Shown in pieces: positions 48,830 through 54,200 of a stretch of DNA of 64,000 bases. The stretch covers positions 3,906,001 to 3,970,000 of the forward strand of contig OX597820.1 in the NCBI GenBank assembly GCA_951406725.2. The letters are read 5' to 3'. This DNA is from Octopus vulgaris. Lineage: Eukaryota. The position numbers were made by a program. Each line of letters starts with the position of its first letter. Within the stretch, counting starts at the first letter, position 1.

Positions 48830-49463
48830 GTGCTTAGTGGCATTTCGTTCATCTTTACATTCTGAGTTCAGATTCCACCGAGGTCGACTTTGCCCTTCAT
48901 CCTTTTGGGGTTGATAAAATGAGTACCAGCGAGACATTGGGGTTGATATAGTCAATTTCTCAATGCTCTCAAAATTACTAGCCTTATGCCGAAAATTAGA
49001 AAGAATTATTTTGAATTCATGCATTTTTGGTTGTCTAAAAAGATTATTTTGTTGTTTACTGGACAGAACCGAAAATGAATTGCAAAGATGATATTCCTGC
49101 AGTGAATCAGGTAAGTGAAAATTTGTAAAAATATTTCTTATTATTTCCATATTGATTGTATTAGTTATTGATTTTGTATTTGTATTAGATATTTGTGATA
49201 TGTCCTAATTGGTGATAGACTCTATTACTGTTAAAAGGTTCCTCTGCATGGGTTGGACGGTTCAACTGGGGTCTGTGAAGCCCGAAGGCTGCACCAGGCC
49301 AGTCAGATCTGGCAGTGTTTCTACAGCTGGATGCCCTTCCTAAAGCCAACCACTCCGTGAGTGTAGTGGGTGCTTTTTATGTGCCACCTGCACGTAAATA
49401 TTAAAATATTAAAATAAATTTGTTTGAAATTTTATGGTGTTTTGTTCAACCCCTGTATGTATG

Positions 49464-49510
<47 letters not shown>

Positions 49511-51233
49511 ATTACCCCCCCCCAAGCACTTGATTAAATCTTTTAAAACTAGAAAATCACACACACACACAATAATGCTTTATGATGGAACTAAGAAGGA
49601 CATTCAACCTAAAACATGTTATTCACACTGAAAATATTTACTTCAAATTTCAAGATTCTACTTACCATTTTGTACATGAAACTTAGCAGACGGTCCATTT
49701 GGGACGTTTGATATCCTACAGAAAGTAAAAGGACAGAAATGTTTTAAAATTATCTAGACAGAAATTAAAGTGATACAGAAACACACAAAAGCTTCTACTA
49801 ATATATTTATACAAAATACACACAACACACATAAAAAAACATTTTTCTCAATTTCCACAATCTCCTGTCTCAAAGAAACTAAACTTACCACATGTATAAA
49901 TCTTTCTTTTTCCTGGATTCAAAAAGTATACACTTATTACAATTCCTCATTTCACACACCTACAAAAAAAAAAAAAAAAAAAAAAAAAAAGGAAAATATA
50001 TTACAGCAATGATTCACAGCAACTGAAAGCAGAAATCTTCCAACAATGACTTAATTTAATTCCATAATTAAAAAAAATTTTTTTTCCATGCAGAGACAAC
50101 TGGTGATAAGAGAAACTAGCAGAACTGACTTCAGGTTGTTGATCCTCACAAAGGAGACGAGGAACAACCAAGATAATTGAGGATTAGCCAGGTTCCAGAA
50201 GCCCCCATCAATCTCAGCAAAAAAGACATGGTCATCAGATCCCTGCATCCAATATGTTTCTCACAAGTCATCCTCATAACTCCTCTCTAACCCCTATCCC
50301 TTCTTCACCCTTCTAACGGCACTACTATTTCCCTCAGCTGCTTGAGAACAGAACTGCAAGGATAACTGGAAGCACCAAAAGTGGGGATAGAATATGTGCA
50401 GTTCTGTTCTCAAACAGCTGAGGGAAATAGTAGTGCCGTTAGAAGAGTGAAGAAGGGATAGGGGTTAGAGAGGAGTTATGAGGATGGCTTGTGAGAAACG
50501 TATTGGATGCAGGGATCTGATGACCATGTCTTTTTTGCTGAGATTGATGGGGGCTTCTGGAACCTGGCTAATCCTCAATTATCTTGGTTGTTCTTCATCT
50601 CCTTTGTGAGGATCAACAACCTGAAGTCAGTTCTGCTAGTTTCTCTTATTACTAGTTGTCTCTGCATGGAAAAAATTTTTTTTTTAATTATGGAATTAAA
50701 ATTAAGTCATTGTTGGAAGATTTCTGCTTTCAGTTCTGTGAATCATTGCTGTAATATATTTTCCCTTTTTTTTTCTTTGTAGGTGTGTGAAATGAGGAAT
50801 TGTAATAAGTGTATACTTTTTGAATCCAGGAAAAAGAAAGATTTATACATGTGGTAAGTTTAGTTTCTTTGAGACAGGAGATTGTGGAAATTGAGAAAAT
50901 GTTTTTTATGTGTGTTGTGTGTATTTTGTAAAATATATTAGTAGAAGCTTTTGTGTGTTTCTGTATCACTTTAATTTCTGTCTAGATAATTTTAAAACAT
51001 TTCTGTCCTTTTTTTACTTTCTGTAGGATATCAAACGTCCCAAATGGACCGTCTGCTAAGTTTCATGTACAAAATGGTAAGTAGAATCTTGAAATTTGAA
51101 GTAAATATTTTCAGTGTGAATAACATGTTTTAGGTTGAATGTCCTTCTTAGTTCCATCATAAAGCATTATTGTGTGTGTGTGTGATTTTCTAGTTTTAAA
51201 AGATTTAATCAAGTGCTTGGGGGGGGGGGTAAT

Positions 51234-51278
<45 letters not shown>

Positions 51279-54200
51279 CATACATACAGGGGTTGAACAA
51301 AACACCATAAAATTTCAAACAAATTTATTTTAATATTTTAATATTTACGTGCAGGTGGCACATAAAAAGCACCCACTACACTCACGGAGTGGTTGGCGTT
51401 AGGAAGGGCATCCAGCCGTAGAAACACTGCCAGATCTGACTGGGCCTGATGAAGCCTTCCAGCTTCACAGACCCCAGTTGAACCGTCCAACCCATGCTAG
51501 CATGGAGAACGGACGCTAAATGATGATGATGGGGTAGGACTGTCTTTGGCAGTAATTACAGCTTGAATTCTACAAGGTATGGACTCGTACAAAGTTTGAA
51601 TTATTTCCAAAGGAATTTTTGTCCATTCCCCAGCTAGAGCAGTCTCCAGATCTTGTAGTGATGAGGGTGGAGGATATTGACTCCTTACTTGTTTTTCTAA
51701 AATGCACCATAAATGTTCAATAATATTGAGATTTGGGGACTGTGGTGGCCAGATAAGATGTTCAACTTCACTAGAATGTTCCTCATGCCATTCAGTAACA
51801 ACTTTAGCTGTGTGAATTGGTGCTTTATCATCCTGAAAGATTGCATTTCTCTCAGGAAACAGTTCTGCGACCATAGGATGAATTTGATCAGATAAAATGC
51901 TTGAATAGTCTTGATTATTAATTCTGCCATGAAGGGAAACCATTGGGTCGGCACATTTTCAAGATACAGCCTCCCAGATCATCACAGATCCTCCATGTTT
52001 AACAGTTGGAAGAAGGCAGTCTGGGTCAAATGCTTCTTTTGGCTTTCTCTACATGTATACTCAGCCAGTGGTCAGAAATATAGTAAAGGATGACTCATCC
52101 AAGAAAATAATATTCTTCCACTGCTCTAGGGACCAATTCTGTAGGTTTTTACTCCACTCTAAACGCTTTGCAACGTTTGTTTTTGAAAGTAGTGGTTTTC
52201 TGATTGCAGCCTTCTGTGAAATCTGGCTTTGTGCAGCTCCCAGTGAACAGTTTTTGTGGAAACTGGGTTCTTGAAGTGGTCATTAAGCTCATTAATTTTG
52301 AGAGCTGTACTTTTGTGATCCTTTCTAACAATTCTTCGCGTAAGAATCTGACGGTCCCTATCTGAAAGTTTTGTTTTGATGAGAAGGTTTTTCCCTCTTT
52401 CTTAAAGGCTGTCATTACTTTCGAGACAGTACTTCTTGATACACCAAACATTTCAGCTGGTTTTGTTACGCGAGCACCAACAATTTGACCTCTTTGAAAG
52501 TCCAATAGATCTGTCATTTTAATGAATTTTAATTATCTTTTTCTGATGATATCTGAAAAGAAACAGCCTTTTTAGCAAAACATATTAAGCAACACTAATA
52601 ATAAATCAAAGGACGTAAAAACAAGCTTTTGACAGTTTTATAGATATTTCAAAATTATGATGCTAGGTGTTTCCATTATTTTGTCCAACTCCTTTGTGTA
52701 AAATATATTAATTTATATTTTGTTTGTTTCTCAATTTTTGTTAAAAAAGCTTTTTTGTTTGTTTGTTTTTAGTTCACACTATGTGTGAATTGAAATTAAC
52801 AGGGAACTGTTTGAAGGGTTCAAGACCCATGCTGATATTTGATCAAGTGAGTACCCTCTGGTTTTCACATTTCATAATCTCATTCATTTCTGTTTTATTA
52901 AATATTTTATTGAAACAAATATGATTGTAATTTAAGCTTTTTTCAATTTTAATCTTCTTCTAAACATTAAATCAAACATTTGTTTCGTGTCTTGAGAATT
53001 AGTAAGGTTTCCTCTTTTTCCTTTTGCATCGTCTGGTTTCCTCCTCCTCCTCCCTTATGCATCTGGTTTCCTCCTCCTCCTCCCTTATGCATCTGGTTTC
53101 CTCCTCCTCCTCCCTTATGCATCTGGTTTCCTCCTCCTCCTCCCTTATGCATCTGGTGATGCAAACTCCTGACAATTCTGCACCAAACGCAAGGTTTCCT
53201 TGAGGGCTGCTGGCACTTTAGTGATGCAGTTAACTGTAAATCATTCCCATGTATCAACATGTTTAACTCTTTAACCTCTCCAGCCAAAAGGAAAGTGTTA
53301 AAGGCAGAATTGGTTCAGAGGAAATGTAAATCTGGACTTGGGTTGCTGCCTAAAATTCTCTCTCTCTCTCTCCAGAAACCTCCAGATCAGCCCTAATCAA
53401 AGACATTTCAGCCATAGATATTACATCCTTCTCTTGAGCATTTTGTAACCAGAACTACCTTATGGTAAAGATTGTTTGCCAACATAACATGGCAGTCCTG
53501 GTTTAGGACGAATGTTGCTGTAATTTAGCCCCAGGAGACATCGTCTCCAGCTGGCTATATGACATGACCTGTGTCCTTACATTTTTCGAACAAGGGCATT
53601 TAGCACCCCAACTCAGCTTAAAACAATATCTGTGTATTGCGATTTCCTGGTTATTTCCCTTCACCAGCACAGAATAATTGTTCGGCTAGAGGTGGCGCTG
53701 CCAAATTCCCGTTTGAAATATATAGTTTTCAAAGTGACAACTAGTCACTGATTTATAAATTAGAGAATTACTATTTTTAAATCTCACAACATTGCTTGAA
53801 AATATAAGGACACAGATCGTGTCATATAGCCAGCTGGAGACGATGTCCCCTGGGGCTAAATTACAGCAACATTCATAAACCAGGACTGCCATGTTATGTT
53901 GGCAAACAATCTTTACTCCAAAATACTGTTGCTGAATATCTCCCGTTGTGAGACTTTTCTAGAACTGCATTATCCTATGAAACTCCTTTTTCAAGCCAAG
54001 AGGGTGTAATTTGAGGGAAATTTAGCTATTCAACAGAATAGACACATAATGTTTTATATACTGTAAGGCTTTTTTTTTTTTCTAAATATGTAAACAATAA
54101 GTGGAATTAATCCAAAACTGAGTCTGAATTTCCAAATAACAAGGAGTCAGAATGGTAAAGAAACAAAATGAATTAAAACTTAATTGGGAAAATTAGCCAT

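What the first reader, a model, noticed from the sequence alone, without database searches (positions are those of the whole stretch)
49246..51497. Giant intragenic palindrome places a perfect antisense copy of BRIX1 coding exons 4-5 in the preceding intron
Seen: 1.1-kb arms separated by only 38 nt. The left arm holds base-identical reverse complements of exons 4 and 5, their splice sites and the intron between them. Known: BRX1 is an essential 60S biogenesis factor, and coleoid cephalopods have exceptionally extensive ADAR A-to-I recoding that depends on exon-intron dsRNA. Inference: the pre-mRNA can fold into a ~1.1-kb duplex that buries two coding exons. This would be a ready-made editing-complementary sequence, a splicing switch (skipping both exons removes 121 nt, causing a frameshift and likely NMD) or a hairpin endo-siRNA source against the gene itself. 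It could illustrate how inverted exon duplication creates new recoding or autoregulatory substrates.
Basis: partly seen in the sequence, partly recalled or inferred. Interest (0 to 1): 0.85.

Follow-up and report, generated by a model that had tools for sequence, protein, structure and literature searches.

The report
Inverted exon duplication inside octopus BRX1
An intron of the octopus ribosome-assembly gene BRX1 holds a back-to-front copy of the next two exons, most likely a very recent by-product of DNA repair that could fold the gene's RNA into a long hairpin, with no sign so far of an evolved function.

Summary
The palindrome exists: left arm 49246-50358, 38-nt spacer, right arm 50397-51497. 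The arms are 96.0% alike (1075 matches, 19 mismatches, 26 gap columns), so it is not perfect. The copies of exons 4 and 5 are exact. The intron between them differs by four small indels.

The gene is BRX1. Its ten coding exons match the Octopus vulgaris protein exon by exon. As RNA, the 2252 nt fold to -1908 kcal/mol and pair every base of both exons and all four splice sites.

The arms are not of one age. In columns that are not low-complexity, the inner block has 8 substitutions in 249, the exon-bearing middle block 0 in 616, and the outer SINE block 6 in 99.

My reading (confidence 0.55) is a real, very young inverted duplication. It was probably made by fold-back repair synthesis primed at an older inverted repeat, then joined to the other broken end. 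It can form dsRNA, but nothing shows selection for that.

An assembly artefact remains possible (about 0.2). Roles as an ADAR editing partner, a splicing switch or an siRNA source are untested. No eukaryotic genomes, reads or RNA data were available.

The parts
46078..60498 (+). Coding span of the BRX1 (BRIX1) homologue. The ten coding exons are 46078-46191, 46983-47094, 49067-49110, 50783-50853, 51027-51076, 52773-52846, 55530-55580, 56288-56423, 58362-58456 and 60319-60498 (stop included).
   Evidence: Named Octopus BRX1 proteins were run by tblastn against the window, one exon block at a time. Splice sites were read. Pfam Brix matches exon 8. Exon lengths add up to 924 = 3 x 308 (my arithmetic). 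The exons were never joined.
49067..49110 (+). Coding exon 3 (44 nt, ends in phase 0); its donor GTAAGT is at 49111.
49111..50782 (+). Intron 3 (1672 nt). It holds the whole left arm, the spacer and the first 386 nt of the right arm.
49246..50358 (-). Left arm: the inverted copy, 1113 nt. It is the derived copy, because its SINE piece is cut off at 49246 while the right-arm SINE is complete.
49246..49394 (-). Truncated SINE piece at the outer end of the left arm. Its junction with unique intron sequence at 49245|49246 is blunt, with no homology beyond it.
49666..49715 (-). Exact antisense copy of exon 5.
49889..49959 (-). Exact antisense copy of exon 4.
50102..50358 (.). Inner block of the left arm. 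It pairs with 50397-50653 and is the older part: 8 transitions in 257 columns. No other copy lies in the window.
50359..50396 (.). Single-copy spacer (38 nt); the loop of the hairpin.
50397..51497 (+). Right arm: the original, 1101 nt. It comprises the 3' end of intron 3, exon 4, intron 4, exon 5 and the first 421 nt of intron 5.
50654..51397 (+). Young block of the right arm, paired with 49345-50101. It has 0 substitutions in 616 non-low-complexity columns. The only differences are 9 indel events and 5 mismatches, the mismatches all within low-complexity tracts and most of the indels in short base runs or microsatellites.
50783..50853 (+). Coding exon 4 (71 nt).
51027..51076 (+). Coding exon 5 (50 nt).
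51349..51531 (+). Complete 183-nt SINE-like repeat in intron 5. The right arm ends inside it at 51497. More than 20 other copies lie in the window.
52773..52846 (+). Coding exon 6. Read in the frame left by exon 3, it stops at codon 7.

Best explanation
This is a real, evolutionarily very young inverted duplication inside the BRX1 gene of Octopus vulgaris or a very close relative.

Origin (inferred):
- A segment of about 1.1 kb was copied in reverse into intron 3. It covers the end of intron 3, exon 4, intron 4, exon 5 and the start of intron 5, including part of a SINE.
- The most likely route is repair of a double-strand break in intron 3. The resected end folded back on an older inverted repeat of about 260 nt with a 38-nt loop.
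- That end primed DNA synthesis along its own strand through exons 4-5 into the SINE. The new end was then joined without homology to the other broken end at 49245|49246.

Consequences:
- Shown: the pre-mRNA can fold into a hairpin of about 1.1 kb whose stem holds both exons and their four splice sites.
- Inferred: on an allele carrying the duplication, part of the transcripts would be hyper-edited by ADAR in the stem. Part may skip exons 4-5 (exon 3 joined to exon 6, stop after 6 codons, likely NMD).
- The structure is a by-product of repair, neutral to mildly harmful. It is not an evolved editing, splicing or siRNA device.
For: Anatomy:
- Arms, spacer and exact exon copies.
- The left arm is the copy: its SINE is truncated at 49246, while the right one is complete to 51531.
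- Unique, colinear gene sequence flanks both arms: exon 3 on the left, exon 6 on the right.

Two ages within the arms:
- Substitutions in non-low-complexity columns are 8 of 249 (inner), 0 of 616 (middle, with the exons) and 6 of 99 (outer). Fisher p = 4.3e-05 and 6.2e-06 against the middle block.
- All 8 inner differences are transitions in sequence with no other copy in the window. That looks like ordinary ageing of an older inverted repeat.

Junction and precedents:
- The left junction is blunt, with no homology beyond it. This fits capture by end joining.
- Abstracts read: human inverted duplications carry a single-copy spacer with short inverted sequences at its border and are explained by fold-back of a broken end (PMC3907307).
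- In yeast, fold-back synthesis at one end is combined with NHEJ or Alt-EJ capture of the other (PMC11724301).

RNA:
- MFE is -1908.1 kcal/mol for 2252 nt, against -503.7 +/- 12.4 in 10 shuffles.
- 1080 of 1086 pairs are arm to arm. 71 of 71 and 50 of 50 exon bases and all four splice sites are paired.
- Exon 6 in the shifted frame stops at codon 7.

No sign of selection:
- Exons 4-5 encode the same residues in O. vulgaris, O. sinensis and O. bimaculoides.
- With 121 exon bases in the arms, the exactness of the exon copies is no more than the surrounding 616 identical columns predict.
Against: - No read, depth, second individual or second species could be examined, so the duplication rests on one assembled sequence.
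- The middle block has 9 indel events and no substitution. That pattern is also typical of residual nanopore consensus errors. It shows that this stretch is not base-accurate in at least one arm, or that repair synthesis slipped. I cannot tell which.
- The older inner repeat is inferred only from the clustering of 8 differences. Arm-to-arm gene conversion of the middle of an older palindrome gives the same picture.
- The outer patch of differences (51398-51461) lies in a high-copy SINE. At 4 of its 7 sites the left arm carries the family's majority base. This could be ectopic conversion, a junction between two SINE copies, or consensus noise, so it is not clean support for any model.
- A long palindrome with a 38-nt spacer is expected (recalled knowledge) to be unstable in a germ line. 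That argues for extreme youth or for an artefact.
- All RNA-level consequences are predictions.
Confidence: 0.55

Rival explanations
1. Assembly artefact. The left arm does not exist in the animal. A fold-back or chimeric long read, or a wrong path through inverted repeats, was built into the consensus.
For: - Passages read in PMC12870357: fold-back artefacts make up about 0.55-0.6% of nanopore genomic reads.
- The published chromosome-level O. vulgaris assembly was built from nanopore R9.4.1 reads with NextDenovo and polished with Hypo (PMC10700109). I did not establish that the window comes from it.
- The middle block differs only by indels and low-complexity mismatches, 9 indel events and 0 substitutions in 616 columns. 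Two consensus passes over the same DNA would look like this.
- A long palindrome with a short spacer is expected to be unstable in vivo (recalled).
Against: - Artefactual fold-back reads are symmetric about the read midpoint and their arms run to the read ends (PMC12870357). Here the arms stop after 1.1 kb and both flanks are unique, colinear gene sequence.
- At under 1% of reads, such artefacts should lose the consensus vote.
- The arms differ by 14 substitutions in informative columns, 8 of them transitions in unique sequence. Two strands of one molecule would not differ so.
- At 3.2% the inner block is more diverged than the 1.22% heterozygosity reported for the species.
- The window contains no N and no gap.
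Confidence: 0.2
2. An older palindrome kept alike by gene conversion. One inverted duplication made the whole 1.1-kb arms long ago. The arms have drifted about 3-6% apart, and a recent arm-to-arm conversion tract of about 750 nt reset the middle, including the exons, to identity.
For: - The same heterogeneity fits: 8 of 249, 0 of 616 and 6 of 99.
- The left SINE shares the right SINE's rare bases at both of its ends, at 8 of the 13 columns where the right copy departs from the family majority. So the whole arm, outer end included, descends from the right arm.
- Arm-to-arm conversion is well known in large palindromes (recalled, not read here).
Against: - It needs two events where the fold-back model needs one event plus a pre-existing repeat.
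- The 9 indel events inside the supposedly just-converted tract would then have to be later slippage or sequence errors.
- It cannot be told apart from the best explanation with the data at hand.
Confidence: 0.15
3. An evolved regulatory hairpin. The antisense exons are kept because the duplex serves as an ADAR editing partner for BRX1 exons 4-5, as a splicing switch feeding NMD, or as a source of siRNAs against the gene itself.
For: - The duplex is extremely stable and covers both exons and all splice sites.
- The base of the stem brings the exon 3 donor region close to intron 5. This resembles loop-out skipping by inverted Alu pairs (abstract of PMC13019027).
- Hairpin-RNA loci in Drosophila are born from inverted fragments of exons of their targets (passages of PMC10317233).
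- Inverted repeats are the main source of hyper-edited dsRNA across animals (passages of PMC9989829).
Against: - There is no evidence of conservation. The exon-bearing block is younger than anything that could be called conserved, with 0 of 616 substitutions.
- The identity covers introns and a microsatellite as much as exons, so nothing points to selection on the exon pairing.
- A perfect duplex several hundred base pairs long is a substrate for promiscuous rather than site-specific editing (recalled).
- BRX1 is a housekeeping gene whose exon 4-5 residues are identical in three Octopus species.
- No RNA or small-RNA data were examined.
Confidence: 0.07

Closest known systems
Fold-back inverted duplications with a single-copy spacer (human germline and tumour rearrangements; templated inverted insertions at yeast breaks)
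   Same: The inverted and direct copies lie side by side, separated by a short single-copy spacer. Inverted homology sits at the spacer border, and the far end is joined without homology (abstracts of PMC3907307 and PMC11724301).
   Different: - The human cases are kilobases to megabases long and end in dicentrics or terminal deletions. The yeast insertions are mostly 5-34 bp.
- This one is 1.1 kb, interstitial and sits inside an intron.
- The priming repeat inferred here (about 260 nt) is much longer than the microhomologies described.
Intronic inverted repeat pairs (for example inverted Alu pairs) that form pre-mRNA stem-loops, are hyper-edited and promote exon skipping
   Same: Two inverted copies in one transcript are predicted to form a long stem whose base lies in the introns on either side of the exons (abstract of PMC13019027; passages of PMC9989829).
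   Different: - The arms here are not transposon copies but the gene's own sequence.
- The exons and their splice sites lie in the stem itself, not in the loop.
- The stem is about four times as long as an Alu pair and nearly perfect.
Hairpin-RNA (hpRNA) endo-siRNA loci of Drosophila, born from inverted duplicates of exon fragments of their targets
   Same: It is an inverted repeat carrying exon sequence of a protein-coding gene and is of recent origin (passages of PMC10317233, such as Dsim-hp58 with an inverted fragment of exon 2 of its progenitor gene).
   Different: - Those hairpins are separate transcription units whose two arms are both copies. Here one arm is the working exons themselves, inside the parent gene's pre-mRNA.
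- No small RNAs have been looked at. Whether octopus makes endo-siRNAs from such hairpins was not checked.
Editing-complementary sequences (ECS) of ADAR recoding sites (GluA2 Q/R, insect Syt1)
   Same: An intronic sequence is complementary to an exon (ECS as defined in PMC5705066).
   Different: - Known ECS are short, imperfect and conserved over long times.
- This one is 1.1 kb, perfect over the exons and apparently brand new.
- No edited site is known here.
Fold-back read artefacts of nanopore sequencing
   Same: It looks like forward and reverse strands of one stretch joined head to head (PMC12870357).
   Different: The arms end after 1.1 kb, differ by 14 informative substitutions, have a 38-nt unique spacer and are flanked by unique sequence on both sides.

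Membership tests
BRX1/BRIX1 (Brix-domain 60S biogenesis factor) gene | Brix domain (Pfam PF04427) | tested here: met
   Coding exon 8 alone matches Brix with E = 1.6e-07 and 31.9 bits (cut-off 28.2). The other five single exons tested (1, 2, 4, 6, 9) were too short to score (0 families).
BRX1/BRIX1 (Brix-domain 60S biogenesis factor) gene | Orthology to named BRX1 proteins along the whole length | tested here: met
   - A search with exon 8 found BRX1 homologues, the best being Argonauta hians at 91%. Its 90% cluster holds the Octopus vulgaris, O. sinensis and O. bimaculoides proteins.
- All 308 residues of the O. vulgaris protein are accounted for by ten exon blocks. Mismatches occur only where alignments run past splice sites.
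Fold-back inverted duplication | Inverted and direct copy adjacent, separated by a single-copy spacer | tested here: met
   Arms of 1113 and 1101 nt with a 38-nt spacer.
Fold-back inverted duplication | Pre-existing short inverted sequence at the border of spacer and duplication | tested here: inconclusive
   The inner 257 nt of the arms carry 8 of 249 substitutions against 0 of 616 further out. This fits an older repeat, but gene conversion gives the same pattern. There is no outgroup.
Fold-back inverted duplication | Copy-number gain of the duplicated segment in the DNA of the animal | not testable with these tools
   No reads or depth data were available. The collections of eukaryotic or metagenome contigs are absent or closed.
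ADAR editing-complementary sequence | Intronic sequence that base-pairs with the edited exon | tested here: met
   71 of 71 and 50 of 50 exon bases pair with the left arm in the minimum-energy fold.
ADAR editing-complementary sequence | A-to-I editing observed in the paired exon | not testable with these tools
   No RNA-seq was available.
ADAR editing-complementary sequence | Conservation of the pairing across species | tested here: inconclusive
   No orthologous intron could be fetched. Within the locus, the exon-bearing block shows no substitution at all. That indicates an age far below species divergence and so speaks against conservation.
hpRNA / endo-siRNA hairpin locus | Long inverted repeat with homology to a target gene | tested here: met
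hpRNA / endo-siRNA hairpin locus | Dicer-dependent 21-23-nt RNAs from both arms | not testable with these tools
   No small-RNA data.
Structure-mediated (loop-out) exon skipping | Inverted repeats in the introns on both sides of the skipped exons | tested here: met
   The stem base pairs 49246 (136 nt into intron 3) with 51497 (421 nt into intron 5).
Structure-mediated (loop-out) exon skipping | Observed exon 3-exon 6 transcripts | not testable with these tools
   No transcript data. All three annotated Octopus proteins include exons 4 and 5.
Nanopore fold-back read artefact | Near-perfect forward/reverse concatenation, symmetric about the read midpoint, arms running to the read ends | tested here: not met
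   The arms end after 1.1 kb with unique flanks. There are 14 substitutions in informative columns and a 38-nt unique spacer (definition from PMC12870357). This tests the assembled sequence only, not reads.

The most novel reading that the evidence does not exclude
The duplication is real and is a 'time-zero' cis-hairpin: the working exons of an essential housekeeping gene form one arm of a perfect duplex of several hundred base pairs in its own pre-mRNA, in an animal with very active ADARs. Transcripts from this allele would be hyper-edited across exons 4-5 and/or diverted to an exon 3-exon 6 NMD isoform, or diced. That would give a naturally occurring, perhaps polymorphic, low-expression or recoded BRX1 allele. 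It would be a direct view of how an editing partner or a self-targeting hairpin RNA is born by inverted exon duplication.
Probability: 0.2. Interest if true: 0.6.

Novelty: new member of a known kind. Interest (0 to 1): 0.35.

Why it matters
If the duplication is real, it is a clean natural example of a repair-made inverted duplication that puts functional exons into a long intramolecular dsRNA. Three things could then be measured in one locus of a heavily editing animal:
- how much promiscuous ADAR editing, exon skipping or dicing such a structure causes;
- how an essential gene tolerates it;
- how long a near-perfect 2.25-kb palindrome survives in a germ line.

If it is an artefact, it is a useful warning. 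Fold-back sequence can sit inside an otherwise colinear gene model in a long-read assembly. In neither case does it give present evidence of a new regulatory mechanism.

Tried and rejected
- Rfam scan of the whole window at gathering thresholds: 0 matches. tRNA scan of 44000-64000: 0 genes. No known RNA family explains the hairpin or the SINE.
- Pfam on five open frames of the inner arm: nothing except one chance-level hit at E = 0.16. The inner repeat cannot be assigned to a transposon protein. It has no other copy in the window.
- Independent support for the left arm: I searched the protein collection with an 84-residue open frame specific to the left arm's indel variants. No candidate was found, so this is a dead end and says nothing about presence or absence.
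- Chimeric SINE junction: I first thought the left arm ended in a different, pre-existing SINE copy. Column-by-column comparison with 9 of the more than 20 other copies weakened this. The left SINE shares the right copy's rare bases at both ends (8 of 13 columns) and differs only in a 64-nt patch.
- Strand-coordinated deamination clusters as the source of the 8 inner transitions: rejected, because whichever arm is taken as ancestral the changes are a mix of A/G and C/T directions.
- The bacterial promoter and terminator scan is irrelevant to an animal intron and is not used.
- An unremoved PacBio adapter as the spacer: considered from memory only and not tested. The spacer looks like ordinary unique sequence.

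
Full report

Yes in the main, with corrections.

- The repeat finder reports a chain of inverted matches that together join 49246-50358 to 50397-51497, with 38 nt between the innermost arms.
- A global alignment of the right arm with the reverse complement of the left gives 1075 matches, 19 mismatches and 26 gap columns in 1120 columns, or 96.0%. There are 10 separate indel events.
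- Fourteen of the 19 mismatches are transitions.
- The window has no N.
- In the whole 64 kb there is only one other inverted repeat of similar size, at 60919-61601 / 62978-63781. It is 92-93% identical, has a spacer of about 1.4 kb, and lies just 3' of the same gene.

The palindrome is therefore real in the sequence and far beyond chance, but it is not "perfect".

- The copies of exon 4 (50783-50853, copy at 49889-49959) and exon 5 (51027-51076, copy at 49666-49715) are exact. They lie in perfect runs of 120 nt (50776-50895) and 207 nt (51012-51218).
- The AG and GTAAGT splice signals are copied exactly.
- The intron between the two exons is not base-identical, contrary to the finding. It has four indel events totalling 6 nt.
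- The pyrimidine tracts ahead of both exons differ in length between the arms.

**2. The gene**

Everything was checked exon by exon.

- Coding exon 8 alone matches Pfam Brix (E = 1.6e-07).
- A protein search with that exon finds BRX1 homologues, the best being Argonauta hians at 91%.
- The 90% cluster of that hit contains the BRX1 homologues of Octopus vulgaris, O. sinensis and O. bimaculoides.
- With tblastn against the window, the O. vulgaris protein (308 aa) is covered by ten blocks. Mismatches occur only where an alignment runs past a splice site. O. sinensis differs at three residues and O. bimaculoides at more.
- Reading the splice sites gives these coding exons: 46078-46191, 46983-47094, 49067-49110, 50783-50853, 51027-51076, 52773-52846, 55530-55580, 56288-56423, 58362-58456 and 60319-60498. 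The lengths add up to 924 = 3 x 308 (my arithmetic).

The window is therefore from O. vulgaris or something extremely close, and I do not take it for human.

- The left arm, the spacer and the first 386 nt of the right arm all lie in intron 3 (49111-50782).
- Skipping exons 4 and 5 removes 121 nt. Exon 6 read in the frame that exon 3 leaves stops at its seventh codon.

**3. Which arm is the copy, and what lies at the ends?**

- The right arm ends inside a 183-nt SINE-like repeat (51349-51531). That repeat has more than 20 other copies in the window, the closest at 95% and 94%.
- The right copy is complete. The left one stops abruptly at 49246, and the sequence beyond has no similarity to the rest of the SINE. 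The left arm is therefore the derived copy, and its outer junction is blunt.
- Just beyond the right arm, on the minus strand, lies a decayed Tc1/mariner-type transposase (DDE_3, E = 1.8e-12).

**4. The arms are not of one age**

I left out columns in homopolymer or dinucleotide runs. The substitution counts are then:

| Block | Right-arm coordinates | Substitutions / columns |
|---|---|---|
| Inner | 50397-50653 | 8 / 249 |
| Middle (both exons) | 50654-51397 | 0 / 616 |
| Outer | 51398-51497 | 6 / 99 |

- Fisher tests against the middle block give p = 4.3e-05 (inner) and 6.2e-06 (outer).
- The eight inner differences are all transitions, in sequence that has no other copy in the window.
- The middle block differs only by nine indel events and five mismatches. 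The mismatches all lie in low-complexity tracts, and most of the indels lie in short base runs or microsatellites (two single-base indels, at 50736 and 50931, do not).
- The outer patch is harder to read. I compared nine of the more than 20 other SINE copies column by column. The left SINE shares the right copy's rare bases at 8 of the 13 columns where the right copy departs from the family majority, four at each end.
- The two arms differ in a 64-nt patch (51398-51461). There, at 4 of 7 sites, the left arm has the family majority base.
- That patch could be ectopic conversion from another SINE, a junction between two SINE copies, or consensus noise in a high-copy repeat. I do not lean on it.

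**5. How it most likely arose (inferred)**

The picture is an older inverted repeat next to a single-copy loop, then a long stretch of identity, then a blunt far junction. This is what fold-back repair predicts.

- A break in intron 3 is resected.
- The 3' end folds back on the pre-existing repeat and is extended along its own strand through exon 4, intron 4, exon 5 and into the SINE.
- The new end is joined to the other side of the break.

The abstracts I read describe the same elements:

- Inverted duplications with a single-copy spacer and short inverted sequences at its border, explained by fold-back (PMC3907307).
- Fold-back synthesis at one end combined with end-joining capture of the other (PMC11724301).

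An older full-length palindrome whose middle was recently reset by arm-to-arm gene conversion fits equally well. Only an outgroup can separate the two. In both cases the exon-bearing duplex is very young. With 0 of 616 substitutions it is younger than the 1.22% heterozygosity reported for the species would lead one to expect for two alleles (PMC10700109). It may well be polymorphic.

**6. Could it be an artefact?**

For an artefact:

- Nanopore genomic libraries contain about 0.55-0.6% fold-back reads (PMC12870357, passages).
- The published chromosome-level O. vulgaris assembly was made from nanopore R9.4.1 reads (PMC10700109). I did not establish that the window comes from it.
- The indel-only differences in the middle block look like consensus errors.
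- A 2.25-kb palindrome with a 38-nt spacer is expected to be fragile (recalled).

Against an artefact:

- Such reads are symmetric about their midpoint and their arms run to the read ends. Here the arms stop after 1.1 kb.
- Both flanks are unique and colinear with the gene.
- The arms carry 14 informative substitutions.
- A rare read type should not win a consensus.

I put the artefact at about 0.2. It cannot be settled without reads.

**7. What it would do (partly shown, mostly inferred)**

Shown:

- The 2252 nt fold as RNA to -1908.1 kcal/mol, against -503.7 +/- 12.4 for ten shuffles. The spacer plus right arm alone folds to -285.4.
- 1080 of 1086 pairs are arm to arm.
- All 71 and 50 exon bases, both acceptor AGs and both donor hexamers are paired.

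Inferred from general knowledge of ADAR, splicing and RNAi:

- The left arm is transcribed first, so the stem can zip up as the right arm emerges.
- That would hide the splice sites and bring the exon 3 donor region close to intron 5, favouring an exon 3-exon 6 product that ends in an early stop.
- A perfect duplex several hundred base pairs long would be edited promiscuously rather than at chosen sites. It could also be diced.

These outcomes resemble loop-out skipping by inverted Alu pairs (abstract of PMC13019027) and the birth of hairpin-RNA loci from inverted exon fragments in Drosophila (passages of PMC10317233). They also resemble the general hyper-editing of inverted repeats (passages of PMC9989829).

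None of it was observed here. The identity covers introns and microsatellites as much as exons, so nothing points to selection for pairing. Exons 4-5 encode identical residues in three Octopus species.

They speak only of conserved sequence around edited sites.

**8. What stayed unchecked**

- No collection of eukaryotic genomes, reads or transcripts was available.
- The orthologous intron in other octopods, read depth, spanning molecules, editing, skipping and small RNAs are therefore all open.
- Supplementary tables of editing-site papers, which might list BRX1 sites, could not be seen.
- A search of the protein collection with a left-arm-specific open frame found nothing. That is uninformative.

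**9. Verdict**

- The thing is a new member of a known kind, a fold-back type inverted duplication. Its interesting location makes a good natural experiment if reads confirm it.
- Interest: 0.35.

Noticed in passing
window 60919-61601 and 62978-63781: A second large inverted repeat begins about 420 nt after the BRX1 stop codon. Its arms are about 680-800 nt and 92-93% identical, one arm carries a 91-nt insertion, and the spacer is about 1.4 kb and contains a SINE copy (61671-61853). It is older than the intron-3 palindrome and shows that inverted segmental duplications recur at this locus.
   Followed up: partly
window 51497-52532, minus strand: A decayed Tc1/mariner-type transposase lies in intron 5, directly after the right arm and its SINE. 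It has a DDE_3 match (E = 1.8e-12) and a helix-turn-helix N-terminal piece, with the frames broken.
   Followed up: partly
window 51349-51531 and more than 20 other places (e.g. 61671-61853, 1765-1943, 7030-7213, 26677-26861): An abundant 183-nt SINE-like repeat ends in a short trinucleotide (ATG) repeat, with copies 70-95% alike. Neither ARAGORN (run on 44000-64000 only) nor Rfam (whole window) recognised it as tRNA- or other RNA-derived.
   Followed up: partly
window 53002-53181: A tandem array of a 30-nt pyrimidine-rich unit lies in intron 6. It has 5 overlapping 60-nt matches, three of them perfect.
   Followed up: no
window 53465-53585 and 53799-53916: An inverted repeat with arms of about 120 nt (95-98% complementary) and a spacer of about 210 nt lies in intron 6. 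It is MITE-like in shape.
   Followed up: no
window 54327-54839, plus strand: A 170-residue open frame in intron 6 looks to me like the C-terminal part of a non-LTR retrotransposon protein. Pfam gave no significant match, so this is an impression, not a result.
   Followed up: partly
window 49889-49959 and 49666-49715, minus strand: On the minus strand, the left arm presents sense copies of exons 4 and 5 with intact acceptor and donor signals. Any antisense transcription through intron 3 could splice them as pseudo-exons. No evidence of such transcription was available.
   Followed up: no
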